Origin: Azolla caroliniana | Taxonomy: Eukaryota > Plantae > Polypodiophyta | Length of the DNA: 64,000 nt | Assembly: GCA_043228905.1 (NCBI GenBank) | Contig: JBHGNT010000008.1 | Location: forward strand, 16,864,001 to 16,928,000 | Direction of reading: 5' to 3' | Part shown: piece after piece, positions 32,291-62,160 of the stretch | Position numbering within the stretch: the first letter of the stretch is position 1 | How the letters are laid out: each line of letters opens with the position of its first letter | Program-made: the position numbers and the translations under genes | The notes under the pieces: model-generated | Database searches by the model: none | Seen by the model: the letters and a program-made list of their open reading frames with translations, nothing else | What the model was told of the DNA's origin: nothing

Positions 32291-32364
32291 CGGGTCTTCA
32301 TTCCCGATTCCCGGACATCTGACCATCCCATCCGGAGGGACCGTAATCCCAACAAACTCCCCCT

Positions 32365-36447: not shown

Positions 36448-37184
36448 TGCAGTCGCTCTGATACCAGATTGTTAGGAAATGGACGCTTTCAAAACCTTCA
36501 CCTCTCGGCCACAACCGAGGAAACACGAATCAATGCAGAAGTAAATCAAAACACAGAGAGAGACTCGAATGCACAGGGTTTAGCGTGGAAAACCCTAGAC
36601 GGGAAAAACCACGGGAGTGCAAGACTCCAACTATCACTATACGCAGGGAATGTACAATGGCGAGCTGCAAGGCGACGACCTTGAGCTCGCTGTCCTCGCC
36701 ACAAGCGGCGGTATTACACAGAGGCGTCGACCTCTTCCTTTCTCTCTCTCTCTCACTCTCTCTCTCGGCTGCTCTCACTTCGCTCCCTCTAAGTGGAAAA
36801 CAGAAAAATAATGAGCAACAACTACAAAACTATTTGCCCTAAGTCATGTTTATACACATATGACTTTCGGGCTATCTACAAATATAGCCTCGAGGGCCCT
36901 TGGCAAACATATTCACAAATATGTCCCCGCATCCGGATCTCTCTCCGGGTACATTCGTCATCCGGCTCCGTAGCCGGGGTCTTCATCGTCCGGATCCGAA
37001 ACCGGGTCTTCATCATCCGGTTCCGATACCGGGTACTCCTCATTCGGGTCTTCATTCCCGATTCCCGGACATCTGACCATCCCATCCGGAGGGACCGTAA
37101 TCCCAACAATCAAGTAGAAGGATGGGCCTTGACAAATAAGACAACGTCAGCAGTTTGCAAATTTCTACTCGAAGAGGTTGTCTG

Positions 37185-38765
37185 GCCCAAGCTCCGGTCA
37201 ACATCAAAACAATCCAAGTAACACAAAATTGGCCAACATATCTTAATTCTCATTTGAGAAAGTGTTGAATGCCTAATTTCTTTAGAAATAGAGCCAACTA
37301 AGAAGAGGAATGCTGCAAGAATGTTGTATGGAAAGGGCAAGAAAGGCAAAGTTGAATGCAATGGTGAGTCATATATGTTCTCACCTGTCCTGAGAGTTGT
37401 CAACCTAATGCATTGTCTAATACCATGTACTTGTGTTACTAGCTAATGACGAAATGATCTTTGGTGAGGGAGATATGAGTCCAAAACCTGATCGTGAAGA
37501 CGAATTTATCCCACTCCCAGGTACATGTCAAAAGCCGGTTTTTGAAAACAATGATTTAGATCATAACAACCCTATGATAGTGTTGCTTTTGGTGCATTCT
37601 ATAGATCATAACAACCCTGTTGAGCACTTAGATGTTGTGGAGAAGATGACCGAGCCTACCACTTGCAATGGGGTATCTACGGCTGTACAATATGACGATG
37701 TAACAATAGGTAAAAATGTGGCTCTTAACCCTATGTTCATTGCTGTTGGTATGTTTGCAAACTTTTAAGTATATGAGTTGATACTAATATTCTTTAGAAT
37801 CCCATTATTTAGGTTTACAAGAGCAGCCCGATTCCTAATTGCAATCAAATGAATCGGGAACTATATGGAGCACAAGTGCAGAGTCAGATTCTGGGATTAA
37901 CCTTTGCACGGAGGCAGACTCTGGAAGCACATCTTCCACACATGAGGACTGTGAGAAAAACGAAGCATTCATATTTGAAGAGCAGCTGGCATGTACAAAC
38001 AACAATTTTTCTAAAGAAGCCCATGAGGAGTGTGGAAAGAATATGGCAAGTACTGAAGAGAAGACTGATTGTACTGAGAATGTATCTGTAGTTTCTAAAG
38101 ATTCCAATGAGAATGAGGAGTGTGGAAAGAACATCGCTAGTACTGAAGAGGAGCCTAATTGTACTGAGAATGTGCTAGTAGTGTCTAAAGAATCCCATGA
38201 GGATTGTGGAAAGAACATCGTTACTAATGAAGGGGAGCCTACTAGCATCACCCATGAGGACCAGGCAATAAAGACCACCCAAGAAGGGGAGCACGATTCT
38301 CTTAAGAATGAGGTGACAACCACCGTACAAGAGGAGTTGACCCAAGAAGGAGAGCACAATGGTCTTAAGAATGAGGTGACTATCACCAGCCAAGAGTTCG
38401 CCAGGAGTATTGCTGTAGCCCACATACAGGAGCCTAATTGTACTGAGACTGAGCATACTAGCAACAACATGAGTACTAAAACAGCCCACATTCAGGAGAT
38501 GAGTGATAATTTTTCTATCGACAGTACCTTTGTGGATGTGTGTACAAGCATTGCAGTTGCAGAAAACACAGTTGCTCTCTCAAGCTTGCCACTTGTACAA
38601 GGTGCCTGTGCATCCACGCCTGTCTCTGATGCCTCTGATGATGAAGTGCCACTTAGTCAGTTGATACCTAAAGGCTTTAAGATAAAGAAGAATGTAAAAT
38701 CAGAAAAAACTGGCACCAACAACAAGCGCATTACAAGATCAGCCAAATTGCCCTCTAGTGCCTGA
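37185..38765 (+). pseudogene. Cargo gene, 3' exons (37185-37362, one or more exons near 37440-37750, about 37813-38765): acidic repetitive C-terminus
   Basis: Donors atg|gtgagt and ttg|gtatgt, acceptor tttag|gttt; 308-aa ORF with 28-aa repeat x3 (EECGKNIASTEEEPNCTENV..), SDDEVPLSQL and basic tail; TAA/TAG stops at likely Gln codons. Confidence 0.6.
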
Positions 38766-39906
38766 TAGTCTTTCAATTGTACTTGAACTTTAGCTGAACT
38801 GTTAGTGATGTCTGAAATTGAACTATTTGGTATACCAAAATACTGTCTCATTTATCTGAAATAGTTATACCAGTGTCTTTCGATTGTCTTTCGATTGTAC
38901 TTGAACTTTAGCTGAACTGTTAGTGATGTTTGAAATTGAACTATTTGGTATACCAAAATCCAGTAGTTATACCAGTGTGAAATTCTATATTGCCAATTGT
39001 AGAGAATGAAAATGTATTCTATTGTTAACTCTAAAATGTTGTGAAGATCAAATCACTCATCTAGTGTTGTAGTGTAATCTGAATTTCTATATTGCTAATT
39101 CTGAAATGATCTTTGGTGAGGGAGGTACAAATTTATCACACTCCCAGGTACACTCCCATGCAGCCATGATTGTGTTGATTACAAATAAAAATCTATATTG
39201 TTAACTGAGATGTTATATACAGTTCGTTATACCAGATGAAGATTTAGAAGACTGGTATATATTGTTAAGCAACCAAACTTTACATTAGATGTATGTATCC
39301 ATCTAACTGAGATACTTTGGGAGACTACTATGTATTACTTAATACTTGCAATTGACATTCGGAGACTGCTATGTATTACTTAATACTTGCAATTGACATA
39401 CTTGCAATTGACATTAGTACTAAACTAATATGTATATTGGTACGTGTGTTAGTACTAATATGTATATTGATACTTGCGAAGTATGGTCTCCTTGAGTGCA
39501 CATGATTAGAGTTGAATAATGACTTGAGTGTACACAATAGAGACTTGATAGTTGAATAAGTTTGGGCCATATTTAGGCTACTAAGTATTCAAGACTTCAC
39601 ACCTTAAACCATAGAAACAATCAACTCTATAATTACCATAAACACTGACAATACAAAAGTATTGAAGACTTCACACCTTAAACCATGGAAACAAGCAATT
39701 CTATAATTACCATAAACACTTAAAATACAAGCTCAAAAAATAGTCTCAATACATCAAATATATCGATTCATAATACATAATAGAAGAAAGACGAAATATA
39801 TCGATTCATTTGTGAATCATCAAAATTAATATATCAATACATCAAATAGTGAACTACAAGTGGATGTTTTTCAGTTTTCTGCTACAATGTATTGATAGGG
39901 TGACTT

Positions 39907-42900
39907 TCAAGCATTAAATAGAGAGACCTCCCCTAATATGTGCTCATGAACCTCTCGGGGGACCTTGTAAACAGTGTTGTATCCCTTAACCTTGTGCTTT
40001 GCTTGAGTCATATTGAATTTGATCGCAAGAATGGCATCAACGTAGATTATTGCGATCAGTGCTTCTTTTAGTAATGCATATGTGTTCTTGCACTGTGGCA
40101 ACTTTGCATAATAGTTTCCATACACGACAAACTCACCAAGGTTGAAATTGTTGCCCCAGCCATCCCTCACCACTTCTTTCAATAATGTCTTGCCTTGCTT
40201 GCACACCACAATGTAGTAGTCTTCTAAATCTTCATTCTGAGGAGATTTGAGCACTGCAAAATGATCTCCAACTTCCAATAAAACTACCAAGTCTTGATGT
40301 TGGTTGTAGTATACAATATCGTTTGAATGTGCATCCTCTTCAATATCATCATGTCGTTCAGGCTCAAGCTTCTACAACTTCTAGGGCTCGACGATTGATA
40401 GGTTGATGCATTTATCCCAAGCTTCATCTATACACATGGAACAAAAGCATGATAAAGTACGGAGTAACAGTTGTGTTGGGTCCTTGCGGCTAAACCCTAA
40501 TACACAATGGGTGTTGCGTGTGCCTTTCATGGTTTTACAACCATATGATTTAGTTCTATCAACCTCATCAGCGCGAACTTCAACAAACAATCTGTTCTTA
40601 CCATCATTTGACATCTTCCATGTTAGCCACTGCACAACATCATGTGCATTTTGTAACTTAGCACCATTATTATCCAACTGCTCACTTGTAAGGGCACATT
40701 TGATCACAGCGCCCGCGCCATCATGCTCTCCTTTTCCATGTCCAGACCCGAAGTAGTTCCATTGCATACGAATATTGAATAAGGAGAAATACTTGGTTTT
40801 GTATCTCAGGTTTCCAACAAAATTAGTACTATGTTGTCAATCGAGAGTACTACACATCCATTAATATTGATTTAGTACAAATACAAAACAAAGCATAACA
40901 CAACGTATCCATTGAGAACACTCTACACTTATTAAAAGATAAATAGTACTATGTTGTCAACCATGTGAACTTGGCATCCATTAATACTAATTTAGTATGG
41001 ATACAACACAAAGCATAGTACAATGAATTCATGGAAAGCACTCTACATGAATTAACAGATAAATAGTACAAACTCTTCAATATCGGATAGTACTATGTTG
41101 TTGACGATGAGTACTTTACATTCATTAATACTGATTTAGTATAGATACAATACACAATACAGTACAATGTGTCCACGGAGAACACAACCCTCCTTAGAAG
41201 ATAATTAGTACTACAACACATGTACTTTACATCCCCCAATAAACATTGATTTAGTATAGATACAACACATAGTACAATACAATGTGTTCATGGAGAAAAC
41301 TCAGCATGGATTAATAGATAATTAGTACAAACTCTTCAATATAAGACAGTACTATGAGTACAAGACATGTACTTTACATCTTCCGATAATTACTGATTTA
41401 GTATAGATACAACACCAAGTACAATACAATGTGTTCATGGAGAACATTCAACATTGATTAATATATAATTAGTACAAACTCTTCAATCTAGGACAGTACT
41501 ATGAGTAAAAGACATGTACTTTACATCCTTCGATAATTACTGATTTAGTATAGATACAACACACAATACAATACAATGTCCATGGAAAACCCTCAACATG
41601 GATTAAAAGATAATTAGTACAATTCTCTTAAGGACGGACAATACTATGAGTACAAGACGAGTACTTTACATCCCAACATAAATACTGATTTAGTACAGAT
41701 ACAACATACAACATAGTACAATGTGTCTATGGAGAACACTTCACATGGATTAAAAGATAATTAGTACAATTCTCTTAAGGACGGACAATACTATGAGTAC
41801 AAGACTAGTACTTTACATCCTTCTGTAAATACTGATTTAGTAAAGATACAACACACAACATAGTACAATGTGTCTATGGAGAACACTTCACATGGATTAA
41901 AAGATAATTAGTACAATTCTCTTAAGGACGGACAATACTATGAGTACAAGACGAGTACTTTACATCCTTCTGTAAATACTGATTTAGTATAGATGCAACA
42001 CACAACATAGTACAATGTGTCTATGGAGAAAACTTCACATGGATTAAAGATAATTAGTACAATTCTCTTAAGGACGAACAATACTATAGAGTACAATACG
42101 AGTACTTTACATCCTTCAGTATTTATACTGATTTAGTAAAGATACAACACACAACATAGTACACTTTGTCTATGGAGAACACTTCACTTGGATTAAAAGA
42201 TAATAAACACAGATTCACGTGACAGGATAGTACTATTTGATCAATCAAGAACAATTAACTTAGTTACAAACAAAATTAGTATGCATGCATCCATGTGAAT
42301 AGTGTTGTGTTCGAATAGTTACAAACATAATTAGTATGCATCCATGTGAATAGTACTGTGTGTGAATAATTACAAACATAATTAGTATGCATGCACTAAC
42401 ACAAGAATTACTTCCTTACACATTGCATGATAAGTACTAAACATATGGATTAAAAATTACCTGGCGATAAAGTAGAACGATCGTGCCGCCTTAAACTGCG
42501 AGGCAACACCATCAGACCAAACCCAATGACGGTTAAAGGTTAACCCTAGAGACAATAAATCTACATGGTGAAGCTTAAAACAATGTTGAACAAATAGTGT
42601 ATCATGCTTTTAATCATCTGAAATGTAAAATATTGATTTCTTATGTAACTCACCGTCTTGCCTCCAATAGCAAATATGTACAAGTATTGTACATTGATCA
42701 TTGTACCAATGCATCGATTGAACCTCATTTTGAACTTTAAATGTATAGTTTTCTGCAAAGTCAATAACGGATACGATGACACCCGTTGGTAAGTTATTAA
42801 TACATTCCTTGAACTGTGAATTTTGCCAATAATTCCGGAAGTTATGTGGAATGAACTCCCCAAGTTGCTTCTTAAATTCTGAGACAAGGGTAGCAACACA

Positions 42901-44205
42901 TGTCTCCTTATATACTTCCTTGATACGCTTAGTTACAAGTCCCTTGCCAATATTTTCAGTCACATACTCTAAATATTTCCATTTCATGATATGACTGTTT
43001 CCCAAATCAAGCTCTTGCCTACAAAATAATGGTAGTGGACAAACCTTACATGTTCTTAATAGACATGTACGACGATGCCACTCACATGATGGTTCTTTTT
43101 CACAAACACATGACCTCCATAGCTTAGAAACGAATGCATAAGTCATGTTTCGTGCATTACACCTATTATCCTCCCCATTTGGTCTACGAACCTCACAAGT
43201 GTAGACACATAATTCCCCATGTATACCCTTAGAATCAGTACGCATTGCATTCACTCCTAGCCTTAACATGTCCATCTTCACGTGGTACACACAACAACAT
43301 GTATTCCTCTCATTTACTTTTCTAACATAAAATGGTTTCAAACCTTGGAACTTGCAGAATCCAACAGTCAAGCTTGGATGTTAGTCTTTAAAGTTCATGT
43401 ACAATTCAACCTACATCAACCAATATATATAGCAAACATTAATATACACTTGGTCAAAACACAAATTTATGGAATGTGAATTGATATAAAAAAATGGAAT
43501 ACTTCTGTCATCTCCAAGAAGTGTCTAGGGTGAATCTAGTACTTACCCTGACTTATTCATTGTCTACACACATCCTTCTTATTTGGTGAGACACGCGTAT
43601 TTTTGGCCCAAAATGAATCCACTTTCTCAATAATCTCTTGAGATAAGGCATCGCATCGTCGTCTACGTCCCAACCCCAGCCACTTGAATTGGCTTGAGTG
43701 TATATTTCGACGATGTTTCCTCAAGTTCCTTCTTTGAATACCCAGGGCTAAGGCAACTTTAGTATTACTATTTTTTTTCTCTCGCACCATTCACAACCAT
43801 GTGTAGGGCTGCCCTCTTTGCAACAAGTTTGTCTATGCTCTCTACACCTTTCACTAAGTCTAGGCATGACTTCATAGACTCTACAATCTCTTCTGAAACA
43901 CATTGGTTCCTAAATTTTATTCTCTCAATGTCTTCATTCAAACGTTGATGGTATAACACTAAATATAATATCCCTACGATCCTCTTCACTAAATCTCTTC
44001 GTTATTTCTACCAAATAACGGACTATGTGAAGAACCACTTATTTCTTGGTCCTTTCAGATATACATGAGTTACTTGACAATTCACTCTCATTGGGGACCC
44101 CCATTTGGTCACTAGATTTATCCAAAAAAATTAACTGTCCAACGAGAGTAGTTAATGTTATATAGACTACACTAAGAAAACACAGTTAAATGTTTTTAAA
44201 TGTGG
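39907..44205 (-). pseudogene. Spliced Sola2-like DDE/D transposase (exons about 44205-43503, 43410-42461, 40792-39907)
   Basis: RNTCCCVYH Cys-rich region, DFAENY..QNEVQSMHW, YISDD, WVWSDGVASQFK, YFGSGHGKGEHDG; GT-AG introns; several nonsense changes. Confidence 0.8.
40820..42205. repeat. About 147-bp tandem repeat (about 7 clear plus 2-3 degenerate units) in a transposase intron
   Basis: gtactttacatc recurs at about 41222, 41369, 41516, 41661, 41808, 41955, 42102. Confidence 0.88.
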
Positions 44206-44254
44206 CCTGCAAAGTGAGAAATAATTCGTTTCGAACATTAGAATTACGGATCAA

Positions 44255-44810
44255 ATATGACAATTGTAAAATCTAAAAATTTAGTACTTAAAAATGAAGA
44301 AATGAAAAAATTTAGTCCTGAAAGTAAAAAAATGGATGGAAGGAACCTCCAATGGTGGCGGGAGCGTTGATTCTGTGTGATATGCCGCCTTGATTTGCTA
44401 GAAGGAACCTCCAATGGTGGAAGCACGATTTACAAATTTGACAATTGTAAAATCTAAAAATTTAGTACTGAAAAATGAAGAAATGAAAAATTTTAGTCCT
44501 GAAAATAAAAAAATGGATGGAAGGAACCTCCAATGGTGGCGGGAGCGTTGATTTTGTGTGATATGCCGCCTCGATTTGTTGGAAGGAACCTCCAATGGTG
44601 GAAGCACGATTTACAAATTTGACAATTGTAAAATCTAAAAATTTAGTACTAAAAAATGAAGAAATGAAAAATTTTAGTCCTGAAAATAAAAAAATGGATG
44701 GAAGGAACCTCCAATGGTGGCGGGAGCGTTGATTTTGTGTGATATGCCAACTCGATTTGCTGGAAGGAACCTCCAATGGTGGAGGGCGCCTTGAATCTTT
44801 GTGATATGCC
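44255..44810. repeat. 181-bp tandem repeat x3 upstream of the transposase exons
   Basis: tgacaattgtaaaatc at 44258, 44439, 44620; internal subrepeat gaaggaacctccaatggtgg. Confidence 0.92.
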
Positions 44811-45141
44811 GCCTGGATTCGGTGAAAGGATCCTCGCCTCGATGGAAAAAGCCCCAAATCACCACGACATAAACTGCAATCGGTGGAAGTAAGAAAGTCG
44901 TTGTCGAAGAAGTCACTATTGGTTGTTATAAGAGGCCTCAAAACAGTCTCTATTCCTGAACCTAAACCCTAACAAAAACAGAAACCCTAAAAAAACCAGA
45001 AATCCTCAACTCAAAAGCTCCAACCTGACATGGATGTTTGAGATTTGCTCCCTAAACCCTAACAAAACTCTTAGATTGGAGGAAAAGCAGAAACGTGACA
45101 TGGATGTCTAAGATGAAGAGCTCAGAGGGATAGAGGAAGAG

Positions 45142-45324
45142 TGTCGAATACAAGTGTATAATGGACGTATTCACACTATCCTTCTGTATAGCTCAAGTTT
45201 GGGCCATTTGTGTAATTAGCATAAAGGGTAGTTGCCCTAAGTTTGTCACTATATAAAGTGACCTTGTAACCTTTTTGTAAGGTTGGTTGTATTATTGTTT
45301 CTATGGAATAGAAAGTCTTTTGTG

Positions 45325-45374
<50 letters not shown>

Positions 45375-48300
45375 CACGATCGTGCAAACTGTCATACGCA
45401 GGTACTCAACCCTAATCGAATGCTTCTTGATCTTCCGCATCGACACGACCTTGTCTTCAACATCTGGTATCAGAGCCTGCACAGTATTCGGTCCTTCAAT
45501 CCGCTGTCGGCCGTCGTCTCAGCCTGCACAGCATTCGGTTTCCTGCGTCATTCGAAGAAGAGAGAAGAAGAAGAAAAAACGAGGCTTGCATCTCATCGCG
45601 TTAGATCATCTTCGCTTGGAGTAAGCCAGCCGGTTGTACTCTGTTTCTTGTGATCGTAACCGCTCGAGGTGAAATCCCCTTGTGCAACATTGACACGATC
45701 GTGCTCCACTCGGTTAAACGGCATCCGAAGAGGTCATCAAACGCTGCTCGCCGCTCATTGTAACCACTCGGTGCAGATCGTTCTCAAGACAACAACCCCA
45801 ATTCGTGCTTCATCCGGCTGATCGACATTCGGGAGGATCAGTTGGATCCATCTCTCTCGTCGCTGCAGTCACCCGAAGCAGAATCGGTCCAGACAATCGG
45901 TTTCAATAATCAGTATTTGGCATATATATTCGGAAGCAAACCGGGCTCACTCCGACTCGGCAACATTCGGGAAGACCAGTCGGTTCTGTCCCTCAAGTTA
46001 CCGGAGTCAATTCGAGCAAGTTCAACAATACAAATATCCGAAGCCGAACCGACTCGGGTTCAAATCCGACTAGAACGATATCGGGTGAGCCAACCGGCTG
46101 CACTCCAACAAGGTTCGTAGTCAACTCCGAACCGAGCTTCGTCAACCGAAACCAAATTTGATGGCATCAACATCCGGCTCGTCAGAAATGAGTCTACGAA
46201 AGTTCGATGGATCGAACTTCAACTTCTGGAAGGAGCAAATGCAAGACTATCTCATAGTCAAGGGGCAAATCGATCCCATCGAAAATGAAGAACCTCCAGA
46301 AGGATACAAACCAATTGAGTGGCAGAAGCTGGACAGAATCGTCCGCGCCACGATTCGGATGCACCTATCGGAATCGGTATACTTTACGGTGCAATCGTGT
46401 ACGACAGCATTCGAACTGTGGAAAACACTGTCGGACACCTACGAAAAGAAGGTCGCTGCAACGAAGATGTTTCTGATCCGGCGCCTCTACAACTTGCGAA
46501 TGAAAGAATCAGATTCGGTTCAAGCACATCTCAATGAGTACGAAAGCATAAGCTCCCAAATCTCATCTCAGGGGACGGCAATCGAGGATGAACTCAGAGC
46601 AATGATACTCATGAGTAGCCTTCCCTCATCATGGGAAACTTTCGTCACAACCGTGTGCAACGCGTCAACCACAGCTGTTAAATACTCCGAAGTCACGAGC
46701 GCAATCCTGACCGAAGCAGCTCGGAGAAAGTCTTTCGCCAAAGACTCAACAGACGACGCTTATGTAGTACAAGGTTCGACAGACCGATTGAACATACGAG
46801 GAAGAGATTCCTCACGGCAGCCGAACAATCAGCGAAGACGGAGCCAATCACGGGATAATCGAATCTGCAACTATTGCAAGAAACCCGGACACATCAAAGC
46901 CGACTGCCGCGCACTCAAGAACAAGAAAGACAAGTCTCAGAAATCAGACAAGAAGAGTGGCCGGCATGAGGAGATCAATTACATCAGCTTCTCATCTGAT
47001 GTGCTACCAAACGACCCGAATATACTGTCAATCGAAAATCCAGTCGGATCAGAAGTTCTGCTCACGACTGAAGAATCGAGCACATGGCTCTTAGATTCGG
47101 GCGCGTCATTTCACGTGACTCCTCATAGATCCCAATTTCGGCAATATACGATCCGTCACTCCGACTCAGTTCGAGTCGGCAACTCGCAACACTGTGACAT
47201 CATTGGAATCGGCACAGTAGAGCTCAACCTTGCAGGTGGCTCTACACTTGTACTTCACAATGTCTGACATGTACCCGAGCTCTCAAGGCCATTGATCTCA
47301 GTCGGACAACTAGATGAAGACGGCATTCGTGCCGGTTTTTCTTCGGGAGGGTGGACACTCCACAGGGGGAACCTCCTGCTTGCTAGAGGACCCAAGATAC
47401 ACTCACTGTATCCATTACATGTTACGCTCAGAGAGGGTAACCTGTTTTTGGTGGATATTCCTGTGTCATCACTATGGCACAGAAGATTAGGACACCTCAG
47501 CAAGGCCGGCATTACGCATCTATCTAGAGCCGGATACATCCCTAAACTCTCCTTCTCCGACCATCAATTCTGCGAGCATTGCCAGTATGGCAAACAAGCA
47601 GCCGCATCACACCCGACATCAGCGCCAAGAGAAACGAGACCTCTCGATTTAGTCCACTCGGACGTCTGTGGCCCAATGCCGCATCAGTCTCTCGGCGGTG
47701 CCTCTTACTTCGTCAGTTTTATTGACGATTCGACTCGAAAGGTGTGGGCTTATCCAATTCGCACCAAAGATCGTGTCTTCTCGATCTTCTCCGATTGGCT
47801 CGCTATGGTAGAAAATCAAACCGACCGAAAACTGAAATGCTTTCGGACCGACAATGGGGGAGAGTTCAAATCAGAAGAATTCGTCAAATTCTGCCGACAA
47901 CGCGGCATCCGACGTGAATTTACGGCACCACACAGTCCGGAGCAAAACGGGATTGCCGAACGCATGAATCGGACAATCCAAGAACGGATAGTTTCCATGC
48001 TCCAACACTCCGGACTGTCGGATGGCTTCTGGGCAGAGGCTCTACTCACGGCAGTACACATAATCAATATGTCGCCAAGCAGACCTCTAGGACTTCAAAT
48101 TCCTCAGGAACTATGGATCGGCAGTAAGCCGAATTATGACAAGCTGAGGATCTTCGGATGCGAGGCATACGCCCTTATTCCGAAAGATGATCGCCGAAAA
48201 CTTGCACCTCGGTCCAGGAAATGCATTTTCCTTGGATATGGATCAGACGGCGAAATGGGATACCGACTCTGGGACCCCGAACGCAGACAAATCGTTCGAA

Positions 48301-50568
48301 GTTCGGACGTTGTGTTCAACGAGTCGGCTATGAATCCATCAGTCGAAAAACCGATCGAAGTCCGAAGGGTAACATTTTCCGATGTGCCGACCCTTCAAGA
48401 AGGCCCCGCTCTTAACACACGGTCAGCTTCACGGGTAGCTGAACCTTACACTACCGACTCGGACAACTCCGACTCGGCACAGCAGAATAATTCGCTTTCG
48501 GACCATCCGACCTCGATACCCGATGCGACCAGTCCAATCATACCTCGACGATCCGAGAGACTGTCGCAACCTCCGGAGAGGTATTCTCCTGAAATTTTCT
48601 TCACCGACGCCGGCGAACCGACGTCTTACGAAGAAGCATCGACATCTGTCGATTCAGCCACATGGCATCTGGCGATGGAGTCGGAAATGCACTCCATTCG
48701 GGCAAACAAGACTTGGGATCTGGTCGAATTACCTAAGAATCGACGTGCTCTTCCTTGCAAGTGGGTTTATCGACAAAAAGAGACGTCTGATTCGACCACC
48801 CCAAAGTACAAGGCCAGATTAGTCGCGAAGGGCTTCTGACAAGAATATGGCGTCGACTTCGACGAGATTTTTTCACCAGTGGTGAAAATGACAACCCTTC
48901 GTTTTCTACTCGGCGTAGTGGCAGCCGACAACTTGGAGCTGATTCAGCTAGATGTCAAAACAGCCTTCCTCCATGGTGATCTTGAAGAGGAAATTTATAT
49001 GGAGCAGCCAAAAGGCTTCGTGGCAACTGGCCAAGAACATCTAGTCTGCCGACTCAGGAAGAGTCTATACGGCCTCAAACAGGCACCGCGACAATGGTAC
49101 AAGAAGTTCGACGACTTCATCCAATCGATCGGCTTCTCAAAAAGCGATGAGGACCATTGCCTTTTTACCAACACAGCTCAAGATGGATCACCCATCTTCC
49201 TCATCATTTACGTGGACGACATGCTAATTTCTGGACGCCACGCGGGCGAACTTGCCGATCTCATTCGGCAACTGCGGTTGAAGTTTGCCATGAAGGACCT
49301 CGGTCCGGCACGACACATACTCGGCATGAAGATTAGTCGGCATCGCGACAAACGACATCTTTTTTTGTCTCAGACCGACTATATCGGACGTGTCTTGGAA
49401 CGCTTCAACATGCAATCAGCCAAATCTGCTTCAACCCCGCTCCCCATGAATCTTCGGCTCTCTCAGCGAGACTGCCCGACATCCGGTCCGGAGGGGGAAG
49501 ATATGAAGTCGGTACCGTATGCACCGGCAGTCGGCTCCCTTATGTACCTGATGGTCGCGACACGGCCTGATATCTCTCATGCCGTAGGAGTCGTTAGCAA
49601 ATTTATGCACAATCCTGGCCGATCGCATTGGAACGCAGTCAAGCATGTGTTCAAATATCTGGCTGGCACAAAAGACCACGGCATTCTTTTCGGACCGAAC
49701 TCAACCTCAGGCGTAGTCGGTTACACCGACTCGGACTTCGCCGGCTGTATAGACAGTCGGAAATCAACAACCGGATACTGCTTCAAATTCGGCAATGGAG
49801 CAATTTCGTGGAAGTCGAAACTTCAGGAGTGCACAGCGACCTCAACGACCGAAGCAGAATATGTAGCTGCGTCCGACGCTGCAAAAGAAGCTTTGTGGCT
49901 CGGCCGGCTGGCGCACACGTTTCGACAAGTCGACCATGACTCGGCTCCAGTTGTCTATAGCGACAGTCAAGGTGCTGTTGCCTTGTCGAGAAATCCGGTT
50001 CACCACAACGCCTCCAAACATATCGACGTTCGATATCACTTCGTTCGGGACTGCGTCATTTCAGGGAAAATCGGTCTAGAGAAAATATCCACAACCGACA
50101 ATGTCGCAGATGGAATGACCAAGTGTCTTTCGGCAGACCGCTTTCGGTCTCTTCGGCATCAGATGGGCGTCACGACAAACCAGTTCGGTTAGAGCCGGAC
50201 ACAGCGCAGGATGGTTTCGGACAACCGACATCAGTTCCTTAATGATCGGCTTCAACTCTCCCGACCCGACCAGTCCGGTCTTCTGCCTTCGGACACTGCC
50301 GACTCGAACAAAACTGATATGTCCGAGAACCTAGGTTTATACCTGTAATCTTAGATAACCCATGTATACGCCCATTACGGGGGAGTGTCGAATACAAGTG
50401 TATAATGGACGTATTCACACTATCCTTCTGTATAGCTCAAGTTTGGGCCATTTGTGTAATTAGCATAAAGGGTAGTTGCCCTAAGTTTGTCACTATATAA
50501 AGTGACCTTGTAACCTTTTTGTAAGGTTGGTTGTATTATTGTTTCTATGGAATAGAAAGTCTTTTGTG

Positions 50569-50627
<59 letters not shown>

Positions 50628-50714
50628 ACGATCGTGCAAACTGTCATACGCAGGTACTCAACCCTAATCGAATGCTTCTTGATCTTCCGCATCGACACGA
50701 CCTTGTCTTCAACA
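45142..50714 (+). mobile_element. C3: young Ty1/copia element with short LTRs and long 5' leader
   Basis: LTRs 45142-45462 and 50386-50714, identical by eye apart from the (CT)n(GT)n tract; TSD AAGAG; iMet PBS 45465-45476; PPT gggggag. Confidence 0.96.
46161..50192 (+). pseudogene. C3 gag-pol, single frame with two in-frame TGA stops (47265, 48837)
   Basis: Three ORF pieces share one frame; CNYCKKPGH, LDSGAS, HSDVCGP, YVDDML, KHIDVRYH. Confidence 0.93.
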
Positions 50715-50906
50715 AAGAGGACTATGAGGGGAACCGCCAAAAACGACGTGAGGGGAAAATAGCCCCCAAAATGGAAAGAACATCTCCTCACGTGTTCCCC
50801 CCACTCCTTGTAGTAAATGACACTTGTACTACAGTCACCCCACTCTCCAAAATCGATTTTTTTTTTCTCTGATTTTTTTTCAAGGTCTCAGTGTGGGTGG
50901 AAGCAC

Positions 50907-52562
50907 GTACCACAAGTCGCAGGCCGATCACTCCGTGTTTGTGAAGAAATTTTATGTAGGAGACTTCTTGATATTGCTCCTGTACATGGACAACATGTTG
51001 ATCATCGGACGAGACCAAGTCAAGATACGGATGCTGAAGAAGGCCCTTAACCGGACTTTCTCAATGAAAGACTTGGGTCCGGCAAGACAAATACTGGGGA
51101 TGCACATCATTCGGGACTGGTCGAAGAAGCAATTGTGACTATCACAGGAAAAGTACGTGACAAAGGTGCTTTAGCGGTTTAACATGTCAGAAGCAAAACC
51201 GGTCGGATCGACACTCTCAGCAAATTGCAAATTATCCAGTAAGCAAAGCCCGAAGACAAAGGCAGAGAAGGTGGATATGATGAAGATTCCATATGCCTTT
51301 GCGGTCGGGATGTACGCAATGGTGTGTACTCGACCAGATATTGGATACGCAGTCAGAGTGGTGAGTCAGTTCATGATCAGCCCCGGAAAACAACAATGGA
51401 ACGCAGTAAAATGGATACTCTGGTACTTGAAAGGCACCTCAAGTATGTGCCTCTGATTCAGCTCCGGTAAACCCCAACTCAACGGTTTCACCGATTCAGA
51501 TATGTCGGCTGATGCGGATACCTCCGATCCACATCTGGATATGTCATGACATACGCGGGGGGAGTTGTTTCGTGGCAGTCGAGGTTGTAGAAGATAGTTG
51601 CGCTGTCAACCACGAAAGTTGAGTACATGGCAGTTGTGGAAGCCGGCAAGGAAATACTATGGATGAAGGACTTCATCGGAGAGCTAGGGATCCGGCAAAA
51701 GGAATACCAGCTCTATTGCGACAGTCAAAGTGTCATCCACCTTGCGAAGAACGCGGCGTATCATTCCAAGACGAAGCACATCCAGCGTAGGTACCACTAG
51801 ATCCGGGAGTGAGTTGAAGATCAAGAGTATGTGCTGACGAAGATCTCCGACAAGCTGGACGCATGTCAGAAGAGGATCGAATTGACCAGGCATCCCATGC
51901 CGGAGTGAAGGGGGAGTTTGTTAGGATTTTGGTCCCTCCGGATGGGATATGAGTACCTGGCAACGGAAGACCCGGTGAGAACCGGATGATGCAAGCCCGG
52001 TGTCACCGGATGAAGGGTCATATATGTAAATATGTTCCAGAGAGCCCACTCGGGCTATATTTGTAAATAGCCTGAAAGTCATATTAGTATAAATATGACC
52101 TAGGGCAAACTCTTGAGGGTGTTGACACTATTTGTTGTATAGAGTTATTGAGTGTAACTGCTGTATAGTGTGTGTGTGTGTGAGAGAGAGAGGGAGAGAG
52201 AGATACAGATCGATTCTCTATTGTAACTGCCGCCAGGCAAAGATTGTGAGCAAGAGGTTGTTACCTCTGTGTTCACCTGTTGTATTCCTCTAGACATAGT
52301 GATAGTTGGAGTTTGTGGACTCCCGTGGTTTTTCCCATTTAGGGTTTTCCACGTAAACATACTGTGTACTGTCGAATACGAGTGTATAATGGCCGTATTC
52401 ACACTGTCCCTTTGGACAGCCCAGGTTTGGGCTATTTCTGTAAATAGCATAAAGGGCAGTTGCCCTACGATAGTCACTATATAAAGTGACTTTGTAACCT
52501 TTAGTGAAGGTTGGTTGTCATTTGTAACTATTACTATTAAGAAATAAAACGTTTCTTTGTGC

Positions 52563-52618
<56 letters not shown>

Positions 52619-55600: not shown

Positions 55601-57755
55601 GCAACGCCGGGGAACCGACGTCTTACGAAGAAGCATCGGCATCTGCCGACTCAGCCACCTGGCATCTGGTGATGGAGTCAGAAATGCACTCCATTTGCGC
55701 AAACAAGACTTGGGACTTGGTCGAATTACCGAAGAATCGACGTGCTCTTCCGTGTAAGTGGGTCTATCGACTTAAAAGAGACGTCTGACTCGACTAACCC
55801 AAAGTACAAGGCCAGATTAGTTGCGAAGGGATTTCAACAAGAATATGGCGTCGACTTCGACGAAATCTTTTCACCAGTGGTGAAAATGACAACCCTTCCT
55901 TTCATGCTCGGCGTTGTGGTCGCCGACAACTTGGAGTTAATTCAGCTAGATGTAAAAACGGCATTCCTCCATGGTGACCTACAGGAGGAAATCTATATGG
56001 AGTAGCTGAAAGGCTTTGTGGCATCCGGCCAAGAACATCTAGTCTGCCGACTCAGGAAGAGTTTATACGGCCTAAAACAGGCACCCTGACAGTGGTACAA
56101 GAAGTTCAACGACTTCATTCAGTCGGTCGGCTTCTCCAAGACTGATGAGGACCATTGTCTCTTCACCAAAACAGCTCAAGACGGGTCTCCCGTCTTCCTC
56201 ATCATTTACGTGGACGACATGCTACTCTCCGGCCGACATGCCGGAGAGCTCACCGAACTCGTTCAGAAATTGCGGTTGAAGTTTTCCATGAAGGGCCTCG
56301 GTCCGGTAAGACACATACGTAGTATGAAGATTAGTCAGCATCGTGATAAACGACAACTTTTCTTGTCTCAAACCGACTACATCGGATTTGTCTTGGAACG
56401 CTTCAACATGCACTCGGCCAAGTCTGCTTCAACCCCACTCCATATGAAATTGGTACCGTATGCACCGGCAGTCGGCTCCCTTATGTACGCGATGGTCGCA
56501 ACACGGCCTGATATTTCTCACGCCGTAGGAGTCGTCAGCAGATTCATGCACAACCCAGGCCGATCGCACTGGAATGTAGTCAAGCATGTGTTTAGATATC
56601 TAGCTGGCACAGAAGACCATGACATTCTTTTTGGCCTGAACTCAACCTCAGGCGTAGTCGGTTACACCGACTCGGACTTTGCCGGCTGTGTGGACAGCCA
56701 GAAATCAACAACCGGATATTGTTTCAAATTCGGCAATGGAGCAATCTCGTGGAAGTCGAAACTTCAGGAGTGCACAACCACCTCAACGACCGAAGCGGAA
56801 TATGTAGCTGTGTCCGACGCGGCAAAAGAAGCTTTATGGCTCGGTCGGTTGGCGCACACGTTTCGACAAGTCGACCTCGACTCGGCTCCAGTTGTCTACA
56901 ACGACTGTCGGGGTGTTGTTGCTTTGTCAAAAAATCCAGTTCACCACAATGCCTCCGAGCATATCGATGTTCGATATCACTTTGTTCAAGACTACGTCGT
57001 TTCAGGGAAAATCGGTCTCGAGAAGATATCCACAACTGATAATGTCGCAGATGGAATGAACAAGTGTCTTTCGGCGGATCGCCTCCGGTCCCTTCGGCAC
57101 CAGATGGGCGTAACGAAAAATCGGTCCGATTAAAAAGTCGAACACACAACACAGGATGGTTTCGGACAACTGACATCGGTTCTTTGAGGATCGGCTTCAG
57201 CATTTCCGACCCGACCGGTTCGGTCTTCTATCTTCAGATCTTGCCGACTCGAACAAAACCGATCTGTCCGATAAACCTTGTATATAGTTGTAATTTAAGA
57301 TAACCCATTTATACGCCCATTACGGGGGAGTGTCGAATACGAGTGTATAATGGCCGTATTCACACTATCCCTTTGGACAGCCCAATTTTGGGCTATTTCT
57401 GTAAATAGCATAAAGAGCAGTTGCCCTAGGATAGTCCCTATATAAATTGACTTTGTAACCTTTAGTGAAGGTTGGTTGTCATTTGTAACTGTTGCTATTA
57501 AGAAATAAAATGTTTCTTTGTGCCTCTCTCTCTCTCTCTCTTGGTGTGTATCTTGTTCATTCTCATACACAGGTCCTTCAACATCATAGATGTTGTTTGT
57601 TCTTCCGCACTAACGACCTTGTCCCCAACATTACCCTCTCATATTGTCTGTGTGTACGTGTATTCACCTCTATTCCCATTCTCGGTGTTTCGATTCGAAA
57701 CGACACGATCTAAGACTCAGTTGTGGCCGAGTAATATTCCGCATATTTCCCGTCA
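50907..57755 (+). mobile_element. C5: 3' part of a C1/C2-related copia (RT-RH 50907-51907; LTR 51919-52369 plus 57631-57755)
   Basis: YHKSQADH..YMDNML; PPT agggggagtt; LTR halves join across C4 and end ...TTCCCGTCA against the G4 integrase. Confidence 0.85.
52370..57630 (+). mobile_element. C4: degenerate copia of the C3 family inserted in the C5 LTR
   Basis: LTRs 52370-52701 and 57331-57630; iMet PBS 52704-52715; broken gag-pol 53219-57133; TSD imperfect (TGTAC / TTACC). Confidence 0.92.
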
Positions 57756-58353
57756 CTTATCACTACATATGGTTTGAACCATCTTCTTGCGAACTTTCTT
57801 GTTGTACTGTGTTGATTGTCAAGGTTGTTGTCGTAGACCAATACCCAATCTCCTTCGATCTTCTTGGGACGCAATCGATGTGTCCTATCAAACCGAATCT
57901 TGTTCTTCACTCATGCTGCCTCCATCATCTTTCGCACTTTTTCTAAATGTTCAGGCCTTCTTTCAAGTTGTCTTATCTGTGCCGCTAATAATTCTTCTTG
58001 GCTCATCTCGTTCTCCCATGGTATCGTTACCCATGAGGCGATCGTCCTTTCGATAGGCATTATTGGTTTTTGTCCATACATAAGCTCTGTCGGCATATAC
58101 CCTGTCACTGAACTGTGTGTAGTTTTGTCGGCCCACAAGGCATAGGAAAATAGTTGTGGCCAGTTCCCAACTCGACCGTTGCATGCTCGTACGATGGCTT
58201 TGACGATTGGTCCATGCCCTCGCTCGATCTTACCATTCACTTCTGGATTGTAGGCAGTCGTGAGGGAGATCTTCACGCCTAGTCGATCAAAGAGCTCCGT
58301 TTGCTTCGCGTGCATCCAACTCCCCTCGATCCGCCACTATCTTTCCCACACAT
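57756..58353 (-). pseudogene. G4 integrase C-terminal part, inverted
   Basis: CVGKIVADRGELDA..AYNPEVNGKIERGH..RRWFKPYVV; begins where the + strand integrase stops at 37184. Confidence 0.88.
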
Positions 58354-58449
58354 CTACATTCATTGCAAGAAACCAAAAAACCTTCAAGGTTAGTACCGTG
58401 ATATAAAATATACAATGTAGGCCACAAGAGTTGCATTACTAATTCATTA

Positions 58450-59030
58450 AGCTACACCTAGTTCCCATATTACACAACTAGTACTAATCGTGAACAATGT
58501 ACTGCTCACTTAGTTCCCAATTTACACAAGTAGTACTAATCATGAACAATGTACTACTAACTTAGTCAAATTACACAAGGAGTACTAATCCTGAACAATG
58601 TACCACTCACTTAGTTGCCAAATTACTGAACTAGTACTAATAAGGAACAAAAGTAGTATAATGAACAATGTACTGCTCACTTAGTTCCCAATTTACACAA
58701 GTAGTACTAATCATGCAGAATGCACTACTCACTTAGTTCCTAAATTACACAAGGAGTACTAATCCTGAACAATGTACTACTCACTTAGTTCCCAAATTAC
58801 AAAACTAGTAATAATCATGAGCAATGTACTACTCACTTAGTTCCCAAATTACAAAACTAGTACTAATCATGAGCAATGTACTACTCACTTAGTTCCCAAT
58901 TTACAAAACTAGTACTAATCATGAGCAATGTACTAGTTACATAGTTCCCAATTTACAGAACTAGTACCAATCATGAACAATGTACTACTCGCTAAGTACT
59001 AATCGTCAACAATGTACTACAAGTATAGTG
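58450..59030. repeat. About 51-52-bp tandem repeat, about 10 units, in a cargo-gene intron
   Basis: Unit gaacaatgtactactcacttagttcccaaattacacaagtagtactaatcat. Confidence 0.9.
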
Positions 59031-59035
59031 TGTAC

Positions 59036-59631
59036 TGTCGGGAGACAGGTCCCTCCGAATGGGAAGGGAGAAGAATAGTGTTGATGAACAAACTCGGCCG
59101 AGGCCGAAACCGGATGAGGAGTGCCCGGCCACGGAGAGCCGGATGGTGCAGACCCGATGAGGAGTGCTAACTGGATGAAGAGACATATTCGTAAATATGT
59201 TTCTGAGAATCCATCATGGCTATATTTGTAAATAGCCGAAAAGTCATATTAGTATAGATATGACTTAGGGCAAACTTTTAAAAATGGTTGTTGTCATTCT
59301 TGTTGGTGCAAGGAGAGAGAGAGCGCGTAACTGTGTACAGACAGAGAGAGAGAGAGAAAGAGGTTGTTGCCTCTGTTGTAACCGCCGCCTATGGCGAGGA
59401 TCGTGAGCATGAGGTCGTTGCCTCCGTGAACTCACTGTTGTACATTCTAACATAGTGATAGTTTGCAGCCTGTGGGCTGCCATGGTTTTTTCCCTTAGTT
59501 TGGGTTTTCCACGTAAACATCCTGCGTACTCGTCTCTTCTTCGTGTCGTTCATTACTTCCCGTTTTTATGTGTATGATTCTAAGCTCAGTTGTGGTCGAG
59601 TGTTGCGTATAGGGAGCGTGCAGTTCCATCA
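59036..59631 (+). mobile_element. Solo LTR of the C1 copia family
   Basis: TG...CA ends, TSD TGTAC on both sides, reverse complement of the C1 LTR with fewer 54-bp units. Confidence 0.93.
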
Positions 59632-60039
59632 TGTACTAACACTAGTACTAGGCACGTTGTAATATAGATTGGACTAACATCTAATCCAACAAATGTAGAT
59701 TGGATTTTAGTACTAACGTGGTATTTTGCACACAAGTAATACTAAACGTGATATGTGTTCTACACACCTAATTACACAACTTGTACTAATTACACCAATA
59801 GTATTAATCTTGAACAGTATTAGTACTAAACGTGATATGTGTTTGACACACCTCATTTCCAAATTACACAAACTGTACTAATATTCAACAATTTACTATA
59901 CACCTTGTTCCCAAATTACATAACTAGTACTAATTCCCAAGTTACACAAACAATACTAACAGTCAACAGTGTACTACAAGTATAGTGTCTACTAAACTAG
60001 TACTAGGCAAGTTGCAATATAGATTGGACGATGTTGTAC

Positions 60040-61597
60040 CTGGTTCCCTTTTAGTAGTAATTCTGGAAAATATCCCTTCAACTACACATACCAATTATAT
60101 ATTAAGAGTACTACCAATACTAACCCACATAATTAGGGTTCGACATATTAGTTGTTAGAGATACACTAATACTAAACCATTGTTCTCCTAAATTTGAAGT
60201 ATGAATTGTGGCGTACACTAGTTCTAATCCAAATGTAAATTGACATCATATAATACAAACAATAGAATAGTAGAGCCACATACCGTACGGCTGTACTTTT
60301 AAACCCCAAGCATAGTACCACTCAACCGCAATTGTAGTTTTACAGTCCATACATGTATTCTCTTTCTCAAAATGATACTTAGCACATAGCACATGATATG
60401 TGTGCAAGCACGGTGTAATCACAACATCCATAGCCTCCAACTTGAATCCGAGGCCACAAAATATACACCTGGCAGATTGCAAACACAAGTTATAATATAT
60501 TAGCTAATATGATATTTATACCACATAAGTAGAGATAAATAACTTTTAAAGCCAATACCATGATATAGCTATACTAGTAATGGTACTTTCCATACCACTT
60601 GGGTGCTCAATTACAGATGGACACAAAGTTTCAAAACCTTTTTGTTTTAAATCCTGCATCAAGCACGCAAGGTTCTCGGAATGCAACTTTAAAGCTGACA
60701 ACTTATTATCTATTTTGGACAAGGCTCTCATCTGTGAACCTAATTGAGTGCCCATATTGTTTAGCTCTTTCTTCAACTCCTCTTTCAACACCTCACTTTC
60801 TGAATTTTGGATTGTCGATGCAATCCATTCATATGTAGTCTTTAATGAAGAGAATTTCTTTTCTGCCTGTATCTCAACTGATTTCACTGCTTCCAAATCA
60901 ACAAGTAGTGCTTGTATTCTTGAGCTCATAGAAGCTATGCAACTGGCCATCATCTGTTCATGCTTTTCAGTCATTGTGGCCCGTACCTTTGCAGATTGAA
61001 CTTGGTGGACAAGTGTTGTAGCCGGAATATCCACATGAGAGGTTCCTGATGACTTCAAGCTAGTGTTGGTACTGGAGGACCCTTTATAATGTTCTGACTG
61101 GTGCCAATTAAAATCTTCCCAATCTACGTCGATGCCACCCTGAACTTCACATGCAAATGCACGTGCAAAAATAGTACCCACCTCATTGTTACAGATTTGA
61201 TTTGTATCATAAACATGTTCATATCTCGTCTTCAATAAGTTCACATATTTCCTCTTCAATCCACTTATGTGGAATCCTCGCCTTGTATCGACATGTGTTG
61301 ACCCCTAGGTTTTTATCAACCACTCTCTCAGCTCAAGATAAACTTTAGGTCGTGCTCGAAGGAAATAACTCCATCCGAGAGGTGTGTCGAATGATGGAGT
61401 GGTACATCTTCTTTCTCTGTGTTGATGAATTCATCACCCTTTCTCTTGTGGGTGTCTTCTTGCTTTCTTTGATAGGTGTCCTTTTTCCTTCCTTCACTGG
61501 TGTCTTCACTTTCTCTTTCATCAATGTCTTCTTTATGGGTGTCCTTCTCGTCATTGTCCTAGTCATCACTATTCTCGTTGAATGAATATGCATGTAC
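60040..61597 (-). pseudogene. Cargo gene, 5' exons: basic TP-repeat region, coiled coil, RING-H2 finger, 42-nt exon (60081-60040)
   Basis: CIFC-x15-CLHTYHVLC-x10-CMDC fits C3H2C3; donor tacg|gtatgt near 60283; micro-exon tgtag|ttgaag...aaccag|gtacaa. Confidence 0.7.
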
Positions 61598-62160
61598 TAG
61601 AATAAAACTCATCAAATTACCATCAACACATAGCAAATCATCACATTGCATGTACAAGCCATGTCAAACACACAAAAACCCTAAATAGTCAGAAGAAAAC
61701 TCATCCATGTCTAACACATACAAATTAAAAACAAATTGACAGGAAACACAGAGAAAACGAAAACATACCAACAAAACGAAAACATAGCAACTCATCATAG
61801 CCAAATCCATCTAAGTTGCATGTACAAACCATGTCAAACACACAACCACCCTAAACAGTAGGAAGAAAACTCATCCATGTCAAACACATACAAATTAAAA
61901 ACAGACAGACAGGAAACATAGAGAAAATGAAAACATACCAGTTGGGCATGCAACACATAGACTATGAATAATCAAAACCTAAAAATGACCATACACATAC
62001 AAATTAAAAACAGACGGACAAGAAACACAGAGAAAATGAAAACATACCAGTTGGGCATGCAGCACAGAGAATACCTGGAGGTCGTACAAGCTGCACATGG
62101 ATTGATGGGTCAAAGGCAGATGGAGCCAAGGTCAAGGCAGAGGTACCACACCTTGGGAGC

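What the first reader, a model, noticed from the sequence alone, without database searches (positions are those of the whole stretch)
37185..62160. Large Sola2-like DNA transposon carrying a convergent spliced RING-H2/coiled-coil cargo gene
Seen: after removing copia insertions and undoing the inversion, one continuous unit of more than 11 kb starts at a sharp terminus (5'-GTGCTTCCACCCACACTGAG at 50906, inserted in the C5 RT). It encodes a transposase of at least 3 exons (DFAENY / WSDG / HGKGEHDG). Tail-to-tail with it is a second multi-exon gene: basic TP repeats, a coiled coil, a C3H2C3 RING-H2 finger, and an acidic repetitive tail ending DDEVPLSQL..KRITRS. Known: these transposase motifs resemble Sola2-type DDE/D enzymes, usually described as single-gene elements mostly outside land plants; RING-H2 domains are E3 ubiquitin ligase modules. 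Inference: this is a two-gene plant transposon whose accessory E3-like protein could counter silencing or regulate the transposase, by analogy with VANC of VANDAL elements. It is the best candidate here for an undescribed system; this copy is a pseudogene.
Basis: partly seen in the sequence, partly recalled or inferred. Interest (0 to 1): 0.8.

Follow-up and report, generated by a model that had tools for sequence, protein, structure and literature searches.

The report
Two-gene Sola2 transposon with RING partner
This is a dead, rearranged copy of a many-copy cut-and-paste transposon family, likely from a fern, whose relatives repeatedly carry a second, facing gene (an uncharacterised domain, a coiled coil and a RING-H2 zinc finger) that has diverged in step with the transposase and would likely act as the element's own ubiquitin-ligase helper.

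Summary
- **Transposase:** Sola2 type, matching published Sola2 profiles at its motifs. A relative's model has an RNase H core and a BAH-like tip.
- **Partner gene:** spliced and convergent, with a novel ~95-aa domain, a coiled coil, a RING-H2 finger and an acidic/basic tail. It is high-copy like the transposase.
- **Pairing elsewhere:** 7 of 10 eukaryotic transposase loci with at least 8.9 kb downstream carry the RING gene, always convergent; 0 of 12 carry it upstream. RING and transposase distances correlate (rho 0.86, n=10), so this is an old partner rather than recent cargo.
- **Ends:** true ends read GGGT[GC][AG]A[AT]GCA. Here the left end is deleted, and 50895-50907 is a TIR fragment facing the wrong way. 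No target-site duplication was read in any locus.
- **Function:** E3 or anti-silencing activity is untested.
- **Novelty:** large plant Sola elements and Sola2 cargo (Fanzor) are published; nine literature searches found no RING partner. The scan earlier noted moss Sola2 elements with a facing gene on other DNA.

Verdict: new variant of a known kind.

The parts
50720..50880 (-). Remnant of the left subterminal arm; the outer ~90 bp, including the true left TIR, are missing in this copy
   Evidence: 94% identical to L023:2164-2321; L023 continues to a TIR at 2072
50881..50907 (+). 14-bp unassigned segment plus a 13-bp TIR-like fragment (outer end at 50895) facing the copia RT; not this element's terminus
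   Evidence: Only match to the TIR motif in the window; chance expectation 0.12 per window; copia RT continues from 50907 (loose ends)
45139..50714 (+). Copia insertion (LTRs 97% identical) inside the left arm; not part of the element
   Evidence: AAGAG duplication; skipped in other copies
44252..44835 (.). 181-bp tandem repeats upstream of the transposase with six copies of one 14-mer
43503..44066 (-). Transposase exon A (start codon uncertain; stops and one frameshift)
42461..43410 (-). Transposase exon B: Cys-rich region, first and second catalytic Asp
   Evidence: 95-96% aa to L021-L023; dN/dS 0.14-0.17 against sister subfamily L020/L024/L025
40805..42460 (-). Transposase intron 2 with 147-bp tandem repeats
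   Evidence: GT-AG; repeats
39907..40804 (-). Transposase exon C: third Asp (HGKGEHDG), CxCxxC, predicted BAH-like C-terminal domain
   Evidence: fold of relative L018
37813..38765 (+). Partner gene last exon: acidic repetitive tail ending in DDxPL, a basic run and TRS
   Evidence: the same ending faces the transposase in L020
37443..37748 (+). Partner gene internal exon
   Evidence: GT-AG flanks keep frame
37186..37363 (+). Partner gene exon remnant at the left inversion breakpoint (37185/37186)
   Evidence: RNAARMLY-like motif shared with Adiantum protein P0066, which also holds the coiled coil (score 49; 0 of 300 shuffles reached it)
58351..60283 (-). Partner gene intron (52-bp repeats; solo LTR 59036-59627) running to the right inversion breakpoint near 58351
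60284..60468 (-). RING-H2 exon (C-x2-C-x15-C-x-H-x2-H-x2-C-x10-C-x2-C, then W-x3-W-G)
60559..61593 (-). Partner gene main exon: basic TP repeats, novel ~95-aa N-domain, coiled coil; frameshift near 61386 and a stop near 61305 in this copy
   Evidence: Open reading frames 79-91% identical exist (P0115 cluster, 31 members)
61594..62160 (-). Upstream non-coding part of the partner gene, cut by a copia LTR at 62161; the right end of the element lies outside the window
   Evidence: Depth similar to the coding parts; LTR boundary

Best explanation
This is a broken copy of a multi-copy Sola2-type cut-and-paste transposon of fern-like and moss-like plants that carries a second, convergent gene as a long-standing partner, whose product is predicted to be a nuclear N-domain/coiled-coil/RING-H2 protein that likely ubiquitylates chromatin or silencing proteins at the element to keep it active. 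Shown: Sola2 DDD motifs, both gene structures, high copy number of both genes, conserved convergent linkage, co-divergence, purifying selection, TIR motif outside the gene pair (confidence about 0.9). Predicted: RNase H core and BAH-like tip on the transposase; the basic C-terminal run as a nuclear or chromatin-binding signal. Inferred (about 0.35): the N-domain docks the partner on element DNA or on the transposition complex, the coiled coil oligomerises it, and the RING recruits a host E2 enzyme, while the transposase's BAH-like domain reads histone marks.
For: SOLA2 MATCH. Published Sola2 profile consensus around both aspartates matches the window motifs by eye (PMC5751038 supplement; PMC3627910 alignment). 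FOLD. Model of relative L018 (pLDDT 81): integrase/mariner core Z up to 9.8, rmsd 3.4, 155 aligned; residues 508-630 match BAH domains at Z about 6. COPY NUMBER. Summed contig depth in run X1 is 14-16k over the tail exons, 7-24k over the 5' partner region and 22-38k over the transposase exons (depth is not a copy number). LINKAGE. 7 of 10 distinct eukaryotic loci with at least 8.9 kb downstream have the RING, plus L013 and L017 with shorter flanks. All 9 are on the opposite strand, 2.4-6.6 kb after the transposase. 0 of 12 loci with at least 5 kb upstream have it there. The window-seeded N-domain profile found L018 and L026 in the same position (E 0.001 and 0.011). CO-DIVERGENCE. Mantel rho 0.86, p 1e-4, for 10 pairs whose transposases are 30-69% identical. 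SELECTION. L018 vs L026 dN/dS: transposase 0.105, partner N-domain 0.26, coiled coil 0.34. ENDS. An inward-facing TIR motif lies just beyond the partner's 5' end in L013 and L040, and upstream of the transposase in L005, L008, L023, L024, L025 and L077/78. Near-identical L024 and L025 have different flanks. DISPERSAL. Four Adiantum homologues lie on four scaffolds.
Against: No locus showed both TIRs with a target duplication. 3 of 10 long loci lack the RING: two have retrotransposon ORFs just downstream and L072 is unexplained. In L018 and L026 the N-domain and coiled coil are present but no RING was found. In L002 the facing ORFs include an NIF/FCP1-like domain instead, so partner content varies. 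The RING scores just under Pfam's cut-off and lacks the Trp and Pro usually seen at the E2-binding face (rule recalled, alignment). Many RINGs in the long loci are decayed. The Mantel pairs share host ancestry and are not independent. The TIR motif was partly derived from the loci it was counted in. BAH Z of about 6 is within the range the tool calls common. No biochemical evidence exists.
Confidence: 0.6

Rival explanations
1. Same two-gene element, but the partner is a structural cofactor of transposition, like the second protein of Harbinger or MURB. The N-domain binds DNA or the transposase, and the RING is a dispensable zinc or dimer module.
For: The N-domain is the most conserved segment of the main exon: 53-68 of 95 identical across four families, against 34-79 of 120 in the coiled coil. 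It persists where no RING is found (L018, L026). MURA-MURB binding is a published precedent (PMC12973397 passages).
Against: The RING is kept in 9 divergent loci plus the window, with ligand spacing conserved where intact.
Confidence: 0.25
2. The RING protein is a self-limiting regulator that ubiquitylates the transposase for turnover or for disassembly after strand transfer.
For: Co-divergence with the transposase. The RAG1 RING is described as an E3 on a transposase-derived recombinase (PMC1131882 passages).
Against: The partner evolves 2.5-4 times faster than the transposase in dN/dS. This fits a host-facing role at least as well as a transposase-facing one.
Confidence: 0.2
3. The RING gene is a captured host gene or gene fragment (Pack-type cargo), or an unrelated repeat that happens to lie beside the transposase.
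For: RING domains occur as rare accessory domains in MULE, CACTA and hAT clusters (PMC12973397 Table S6). Not every locus has it.
Against: Fixed position and orientation in 9 divergent loci, co-divergence, purifying selection and location inside the TIR motif. No named host gene appeared among the homologues looked up.
Confidence: 0.07

Closest known systems
Sola2 group of the Sola superfamily (Bao et al. 2009, not held; profiles seen in PMC5751038 and PMC3627910 supplements)
   Same: DFAENY..Q.EVQS.HW, SDG.A.Q[FY]K and HGKG..D motifs; short TIRs; AT-rich 4-mers next to the TIR motif
   Different: About 11-12 kb or more, introns, a BAH-like tip and a conserved convergent N-domain/coiled-coil/RING-H2 gene not mentioned in the sources read
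Plant Sola clusters 4006-4009 of PMC12973397 Table S2 (Ceratodon, Rhytidiadelphus, Cibotium)
   Same: 9.9-11.2 kb, 26-32 bp TIRs, sequences starting GGGTG, 4-bp TSD, moss and fern hosts; likely the same lineage
   Different: Only Sola1/Sola2 domains are listed; no RING row for Sola in Table S6. Sequence cells are cut at 400 characters, so their interior could not be checked
Sola2-Fanzor1 elements DFa-1/2/3 and PPa-1/4/5 (PMC3627910)
   Same: Sola2 transposase with a second gene in a ~12-13 kb element; AT-rich 4-bp TSD
   Different: The passenger is a TnpB-like protein that is exchanged between families; here the partner co-diverges with the transposase
VANDAL/VANC of Arabidopsis (PMC5735166, abstract read)
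   Same: Accessory gene plus non-coding tandem repeats that differ between related elements
   Different: MULE transposase (recalled); no sequence or domain link to VANC found; no DNA binding or demethylation shown here
RAG-like (RAGL/ProtoRAG) transposons (PMC7204232 start of abstract; PMC1131882 passages)
   Same: Two convergent genes; a RING finger in the system
   Different: Transib-type transposase; the RING is on RAG1 itself; the partner is unrelated to RAG2

Membership tests
Sola2 | DDD transposase with the Sola2 motif set | tested here: met
   By-eye match to profile positions 32-58 and 110-123 and to Repbase Sola2 alignment rows. No profile score was computed; Sola1 and Sola3 profiles were not read.
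Sola2 | RNase H-like catalytic fold | tested here: met
   Model of relative L018: Z 9.8, rmsd 3.4, 155 aligned to RSV integrase; Mos1 Z 8.6. Foldseek gave no E <= 0.001.
Sola2 | Terminal inverted repeats | tested here: inconclusive
   Motif found at left ends (6 loci) and right ends (2 loci), never both in one locus. Missing at the window's left end.
Sola2 | 4-bp target-site duplication | tested here: inconclusive
   No locus with both flanks; single flanks are AT-rich. The proposed GTAC is not supported.
RING-H2 E3 ligases | C3H2C3 ligand spacing | tested here: met
   Pfam zf-RING_2 E 9e-6, 1 bit under the cut-off; homologue P0063 passes the zf-RING_11 cut-off.
RING-H2 E3 ligases | E2-dependent ubiquitin transfer | not testable with these tools
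   Needs an in vitro assay.
VANDAL/VANC anti-silencing system | MULE-type transposase | tested here: not met
   No Pfam family on the transposase exons; Sola2 motifs instead.
VANDAL/VANC anti-silencing system | Accessory protein binds tandem-repeat motifs and causes hypomethylation | not testable with these tools
   Repeats are present; binding is untested.
Captured host-gene cargo (Pack-type) | Recent copy of a host gene, not conserved across element lineages | tested here: not met
   Conserved position and co-divergence across transposases 30-69% identical.
RAG-like transposons | Transib/RAG1-type transposase with a RAG2-like partner | tested here: not met
   Sola2 motifs; the partner has no kelch or PHD match above noise.

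The most novel reading that the evidence does not exclude
A lineage of Sola2 transposons, as old as the fern-moss split, runs a two-protein chromatin module: a transposase with a BAH-like histone reader, and a dedicated ubiquitin ligase built on a previously undescribed domain that marks nucleosomes or silencing factors at its own element. This would be a transposon-encoded E3 anti-silencing or targeting system in seed-free plants.
Probability: 0.3. Interest if true: 0.8.

Novelty: new variant of a known kind. Interest (0 to 1): 0.56.

Why it matters
Documented transposon counter-silencing in plants rests on few cases (VANC, a rice CACTA microRNA; PMC12973397 passages). A partner gene kept in one position across transposases only 30-69% identical implies a function under selection. 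It supplies a new conserved domain and a testable candidate E3. Near-intact relatives exist (L013, the P0115 cluster, and catalogued Sola clusters in the moss Ceratodon), so the question can be tested. It also shows that many 'hypothetical' RING genes in fern and moss annotations (four in Adiantum here) are likely transposon-borne.

Tried and rejected
- No whole genome is held, so the genome-wide terminus search could not be run.
- Viral contigs gave no transposase relative. Prokaryote genomes gave one partial hit on a MAG contig, L081, flanked by bacterial genes. It was left out of the 7-of-10 count; with it the count is 7 of 11 at 7.5 kb or more.
- A generic inverted-repeat search in loci with enough flank found only chance-level pairs. 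The motif-guided pair search found none with 16 of 26 matches or more.
- One plus-strand RING hit (L051, E 7e-4) is weak and looks like a different RING; it was not counted.
- N-domain identity is unresolved: no Pfam family; no solved-structure sequence hit under E 0.18; model pLDDT 72 with no Foldseek match and best Z 3.4; no usable Atlas hit (one search returned only generic RING clusters under 0.9). This does not show the fold is new.
- A search of longer proteins with the N-domain/coiled-coil piece found nothing.
- The complex prediction of transposase with N-domain gave no answer.
- No RNA holder was listed. The guessed-RNA run X20 has contigs covering introns, so it says nothing on expression or splicing.
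- An acidic-patch role for the terminal TRS motif was considered from recall; one search gave no support. The D[DGN]xPL-plus-basic ending is seen in L002, L005, L006 and L020, but not in most of the 34 loci screened.
- The tail-to-tail protein link with P0066 is not significant for the tail (37 of 300 shuffles reached the score) and only marginal for P0058 (78 against a shuffle maximum of 76).
- The tree used a wrong frame for window exon C and was redone.
Full report
**Setting.** The window is a nest of copia and gypsy retrotransposons. No genome is held. The nearest named homologues are from the fern Adiantum nelumboides for the partner gene, and from the moss Ceratodon and the alga Klebsormidium for the transposase. 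The host is therefore likely a fern-like plant; this is an inference.

**Anatomy.** The transposase lies on the minus strand in three exons: about 44066-43503, 43410-42461 and 40804-39907. Both introns are GT-AG and keep frame. It has six internal stops in the 712 codons read from 43790, plus a frameshift near 43775. The partner gene has its main exon at 61593-60559 (-) and a RING exon at 60468-60284 (-). After an inversion it continues at 37186-37363, 37443-37748 and 37813-38765 (+). Its stop codon lies 1.14 kb from the transposase's, so the genes are convergent. The inversion is inferred from a gypsy integrase that ends at 37185 (+) and resumes near 58350 (-). The copia at 45139-50714 and the solo LTR at 59036-59627 are later insertions, skipped in other copies. 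Element DNA in the window totals 11.3 kb.

**The terminus is misread.** Locus L023 is the same family (91-94% nt). Its similarity to the window ends at 50880, and L023 runs about 90 bp further to an end beginning GGGTCGAAGCAC. Sister loci L024 and L025 share that end but have different flanks. Four catalogued moss and fern Sola clusters also begin GGGTG (PMC12973397 Table S2 rows). In the window the only match to this motif starts at 50895 on the + strand and runs 13 bp into the copia RT. It therefore faces away from this element. It is likely the remnant of another end, fused to the copia by a deletion. No TSD can be read here.

**The transposase is Sola2.** It has no Pfam match, as expected: PMC5751038 states that Sola domains lack Pfam similarity. 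The published Sola2 profile consensus matches the window around the first and second aspartate, and Repbase Sola2 rows show the same three motifs. This was compared by eye, and the Sola1 and Sola3 profiles were not read. Twenty-eight homologues were found among 198 candidates. A model of relative L018 (pLDDT 81) matches integrase and mariner cores (Z up to 9.8) and, at residues 508-630, BAH domains of MTA1, DNMT1, EBS, ZMET2 and ORC1 at Z about 6, which is suggestive only. dN/dS is 0.11-0.18 between subfamilies and 0.34-0.53 between this dead copy and its nearest relatives.

**Both genes are repeats.** Contigs from public runs cover the partner gene and the transposase at similar summed depth, far below the copia elements (5 of the 23 listed runs were laid). 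Depth is not a copy number. Other copies differ at this copy's lesions, for example 2 extra bases at 61386 and about 30 extra near 60720. An open version of the main exon forms a 31-member cluster; the 16 proteins compared are distinct and 75-91% identical to the window.

**The pairing is conserved.** The metagenome scan kept the best 80 of 293 transposase loci. With one MAG hit these collapse to 59 distinct loci. A RING profile seeded from window-derived protein hits found a convergent RING in 7 of the 10 eukaryotic loci with at least 8.9 kb downstream, and in two shorter ones. All nine are on the opposite strand, and none of 12 loci with at least 5 kb upstream has it there. Of the three misses, two have retrotransposon ORFs downstream and one is unexplained. 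The N-domain profile independently found L018 and L026, where no RING was found; later profiles added L013, L040, L043 and L053/64. Seven more loci with 2.3-5.8 kb downstream had neither domain, though two of them (L002, L006) show a facing acidic/basic ORF end. Pairwise identities of RING and transposase correlate (rho 0.86, p 1e-4, 10 pairs, not independent of host ancestry). The partner is under purifying selection in the one pair testable at DNA level (0.26-0.46 against 0.105). The TIR motif occurs 7 times in the 59 representatives against a simulated mean of 0.9 (maximum 4). The motif was partly built from these loci. Nine of its ten hits over all loci sit where an end should be, two of them just beyond the partner's 5' end. 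No locus gave both ends.

**Mechanism.** Shown: architecture, linkage and selection. Predicted: a BAH-like reader on the transposase and a basic nuclear-type ending on the partner. Inferred: the partner is tethered to its element by the N-domain and uses the RING as an E3 on chromatin or silencing proteins. In favour are retention of the RING in nine divergent loci, faster evolution than the transposase, and non-coding tandem repeats that differ between subfamilies, as VANC targets do (PMC5735166 abstract). Against are loss of the RING in one clade and missing canonical E2-face residues (rule recalled). I put the two-gene element at about 0.9 and this mechanism at about 0.35, ahead of a scaffold role (0.25) and transposase turnover (0.2).

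**What is known.** Sola is recorded in moss (PMC10741241 passages) and ferns (PMC6786969 passage). Giant Sola-1 elements occur in Ectocarpus (PMC12477816 passages), and Sola2 elements carry Fanzor1 in amoebozoa (PMC3627910 section passage). PMC12973397 lists four plant Sola clusters without a second gene, and its Table S6 has RING rows only for MULE, CACTA and hAT. 10.1101/2021.09.26.461848 (passages) lists Sola1-3 without detail. Nine searches found no description of a Sola element with a RING partner. The founding Sola paper and Repbase are not held, and the Table S2 sequences are cut at 400 characters, so prior annotation cannot be excluded. Earlier notes of this scan mention moss Sola2 with a facing second gene in another genome, and a Sola family with a ParB-methyltransferase in this genome. 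Sequence look-ups with the transposase exon and with P0115 returned nothing.

**Verdict.** A real, conserved two-gene Sola2 variant with an uncharacterised RING-H2 partner. This copy is dead and lacks its left end. New variant of a known kind; interest 0.56.

Noticed in passing
L018:9300-9593 and L018/L026 overall: The RING-less partner in L018 lies just downstream of what looks by eye like a host exon (VPS13-like, recalled), and no right TIR was found. L018, L026 and P0106-P0113 are close relatives with open frames; possibly a domesticated gene pair.
   Followed up: partly
L002:2770-4729 (-): In another transposase clade the facing ORFs include an NIF/FCP1-like phosphatase domain (Pfam E 8e-15), so Sola2 partners vary.
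   Followed up: partly
window 50881-50894: The 14-bp segment before the TIR fragment starts with the same 5 bases that precede the copia breakpoint in intact copia copies (loose ends); the origin of this junction is unexplained.
   Followed up: partly
window 52370-57632: Copia whose LTRs are only about 86% identical and whose flanks show no matching target duplication; likely a recombinant or deletion junction inside the inverted block.
   Followed up: no
window 31657-37109: Copia with an uninterrupted 1368-aa reading frame, near-identical LTRs and an ATCAA duplication, inserted in a gypsy integrase; a recent insertion.
   Followed up: partly
P0015 (Klebsormidium KFL_005820050): A transposase of this family is annotated fused to an N-terminal LRR region; fusion or mis-annotation.
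   Followed up: no
L081:737-1518: Partial Sola2 transposase at the start of a Bacteroidales MAG contig with bacterial genes behind it; chimera or transfer not resolved.
   Followed up: no
window 38740-38765 and L002, L005, L006, L020, P0058, P0066: Facing genes often end in an acidic stretch, a D[DGN]xPL-like motif, a basic run and (except L005) TRS.
   Followed up: partly
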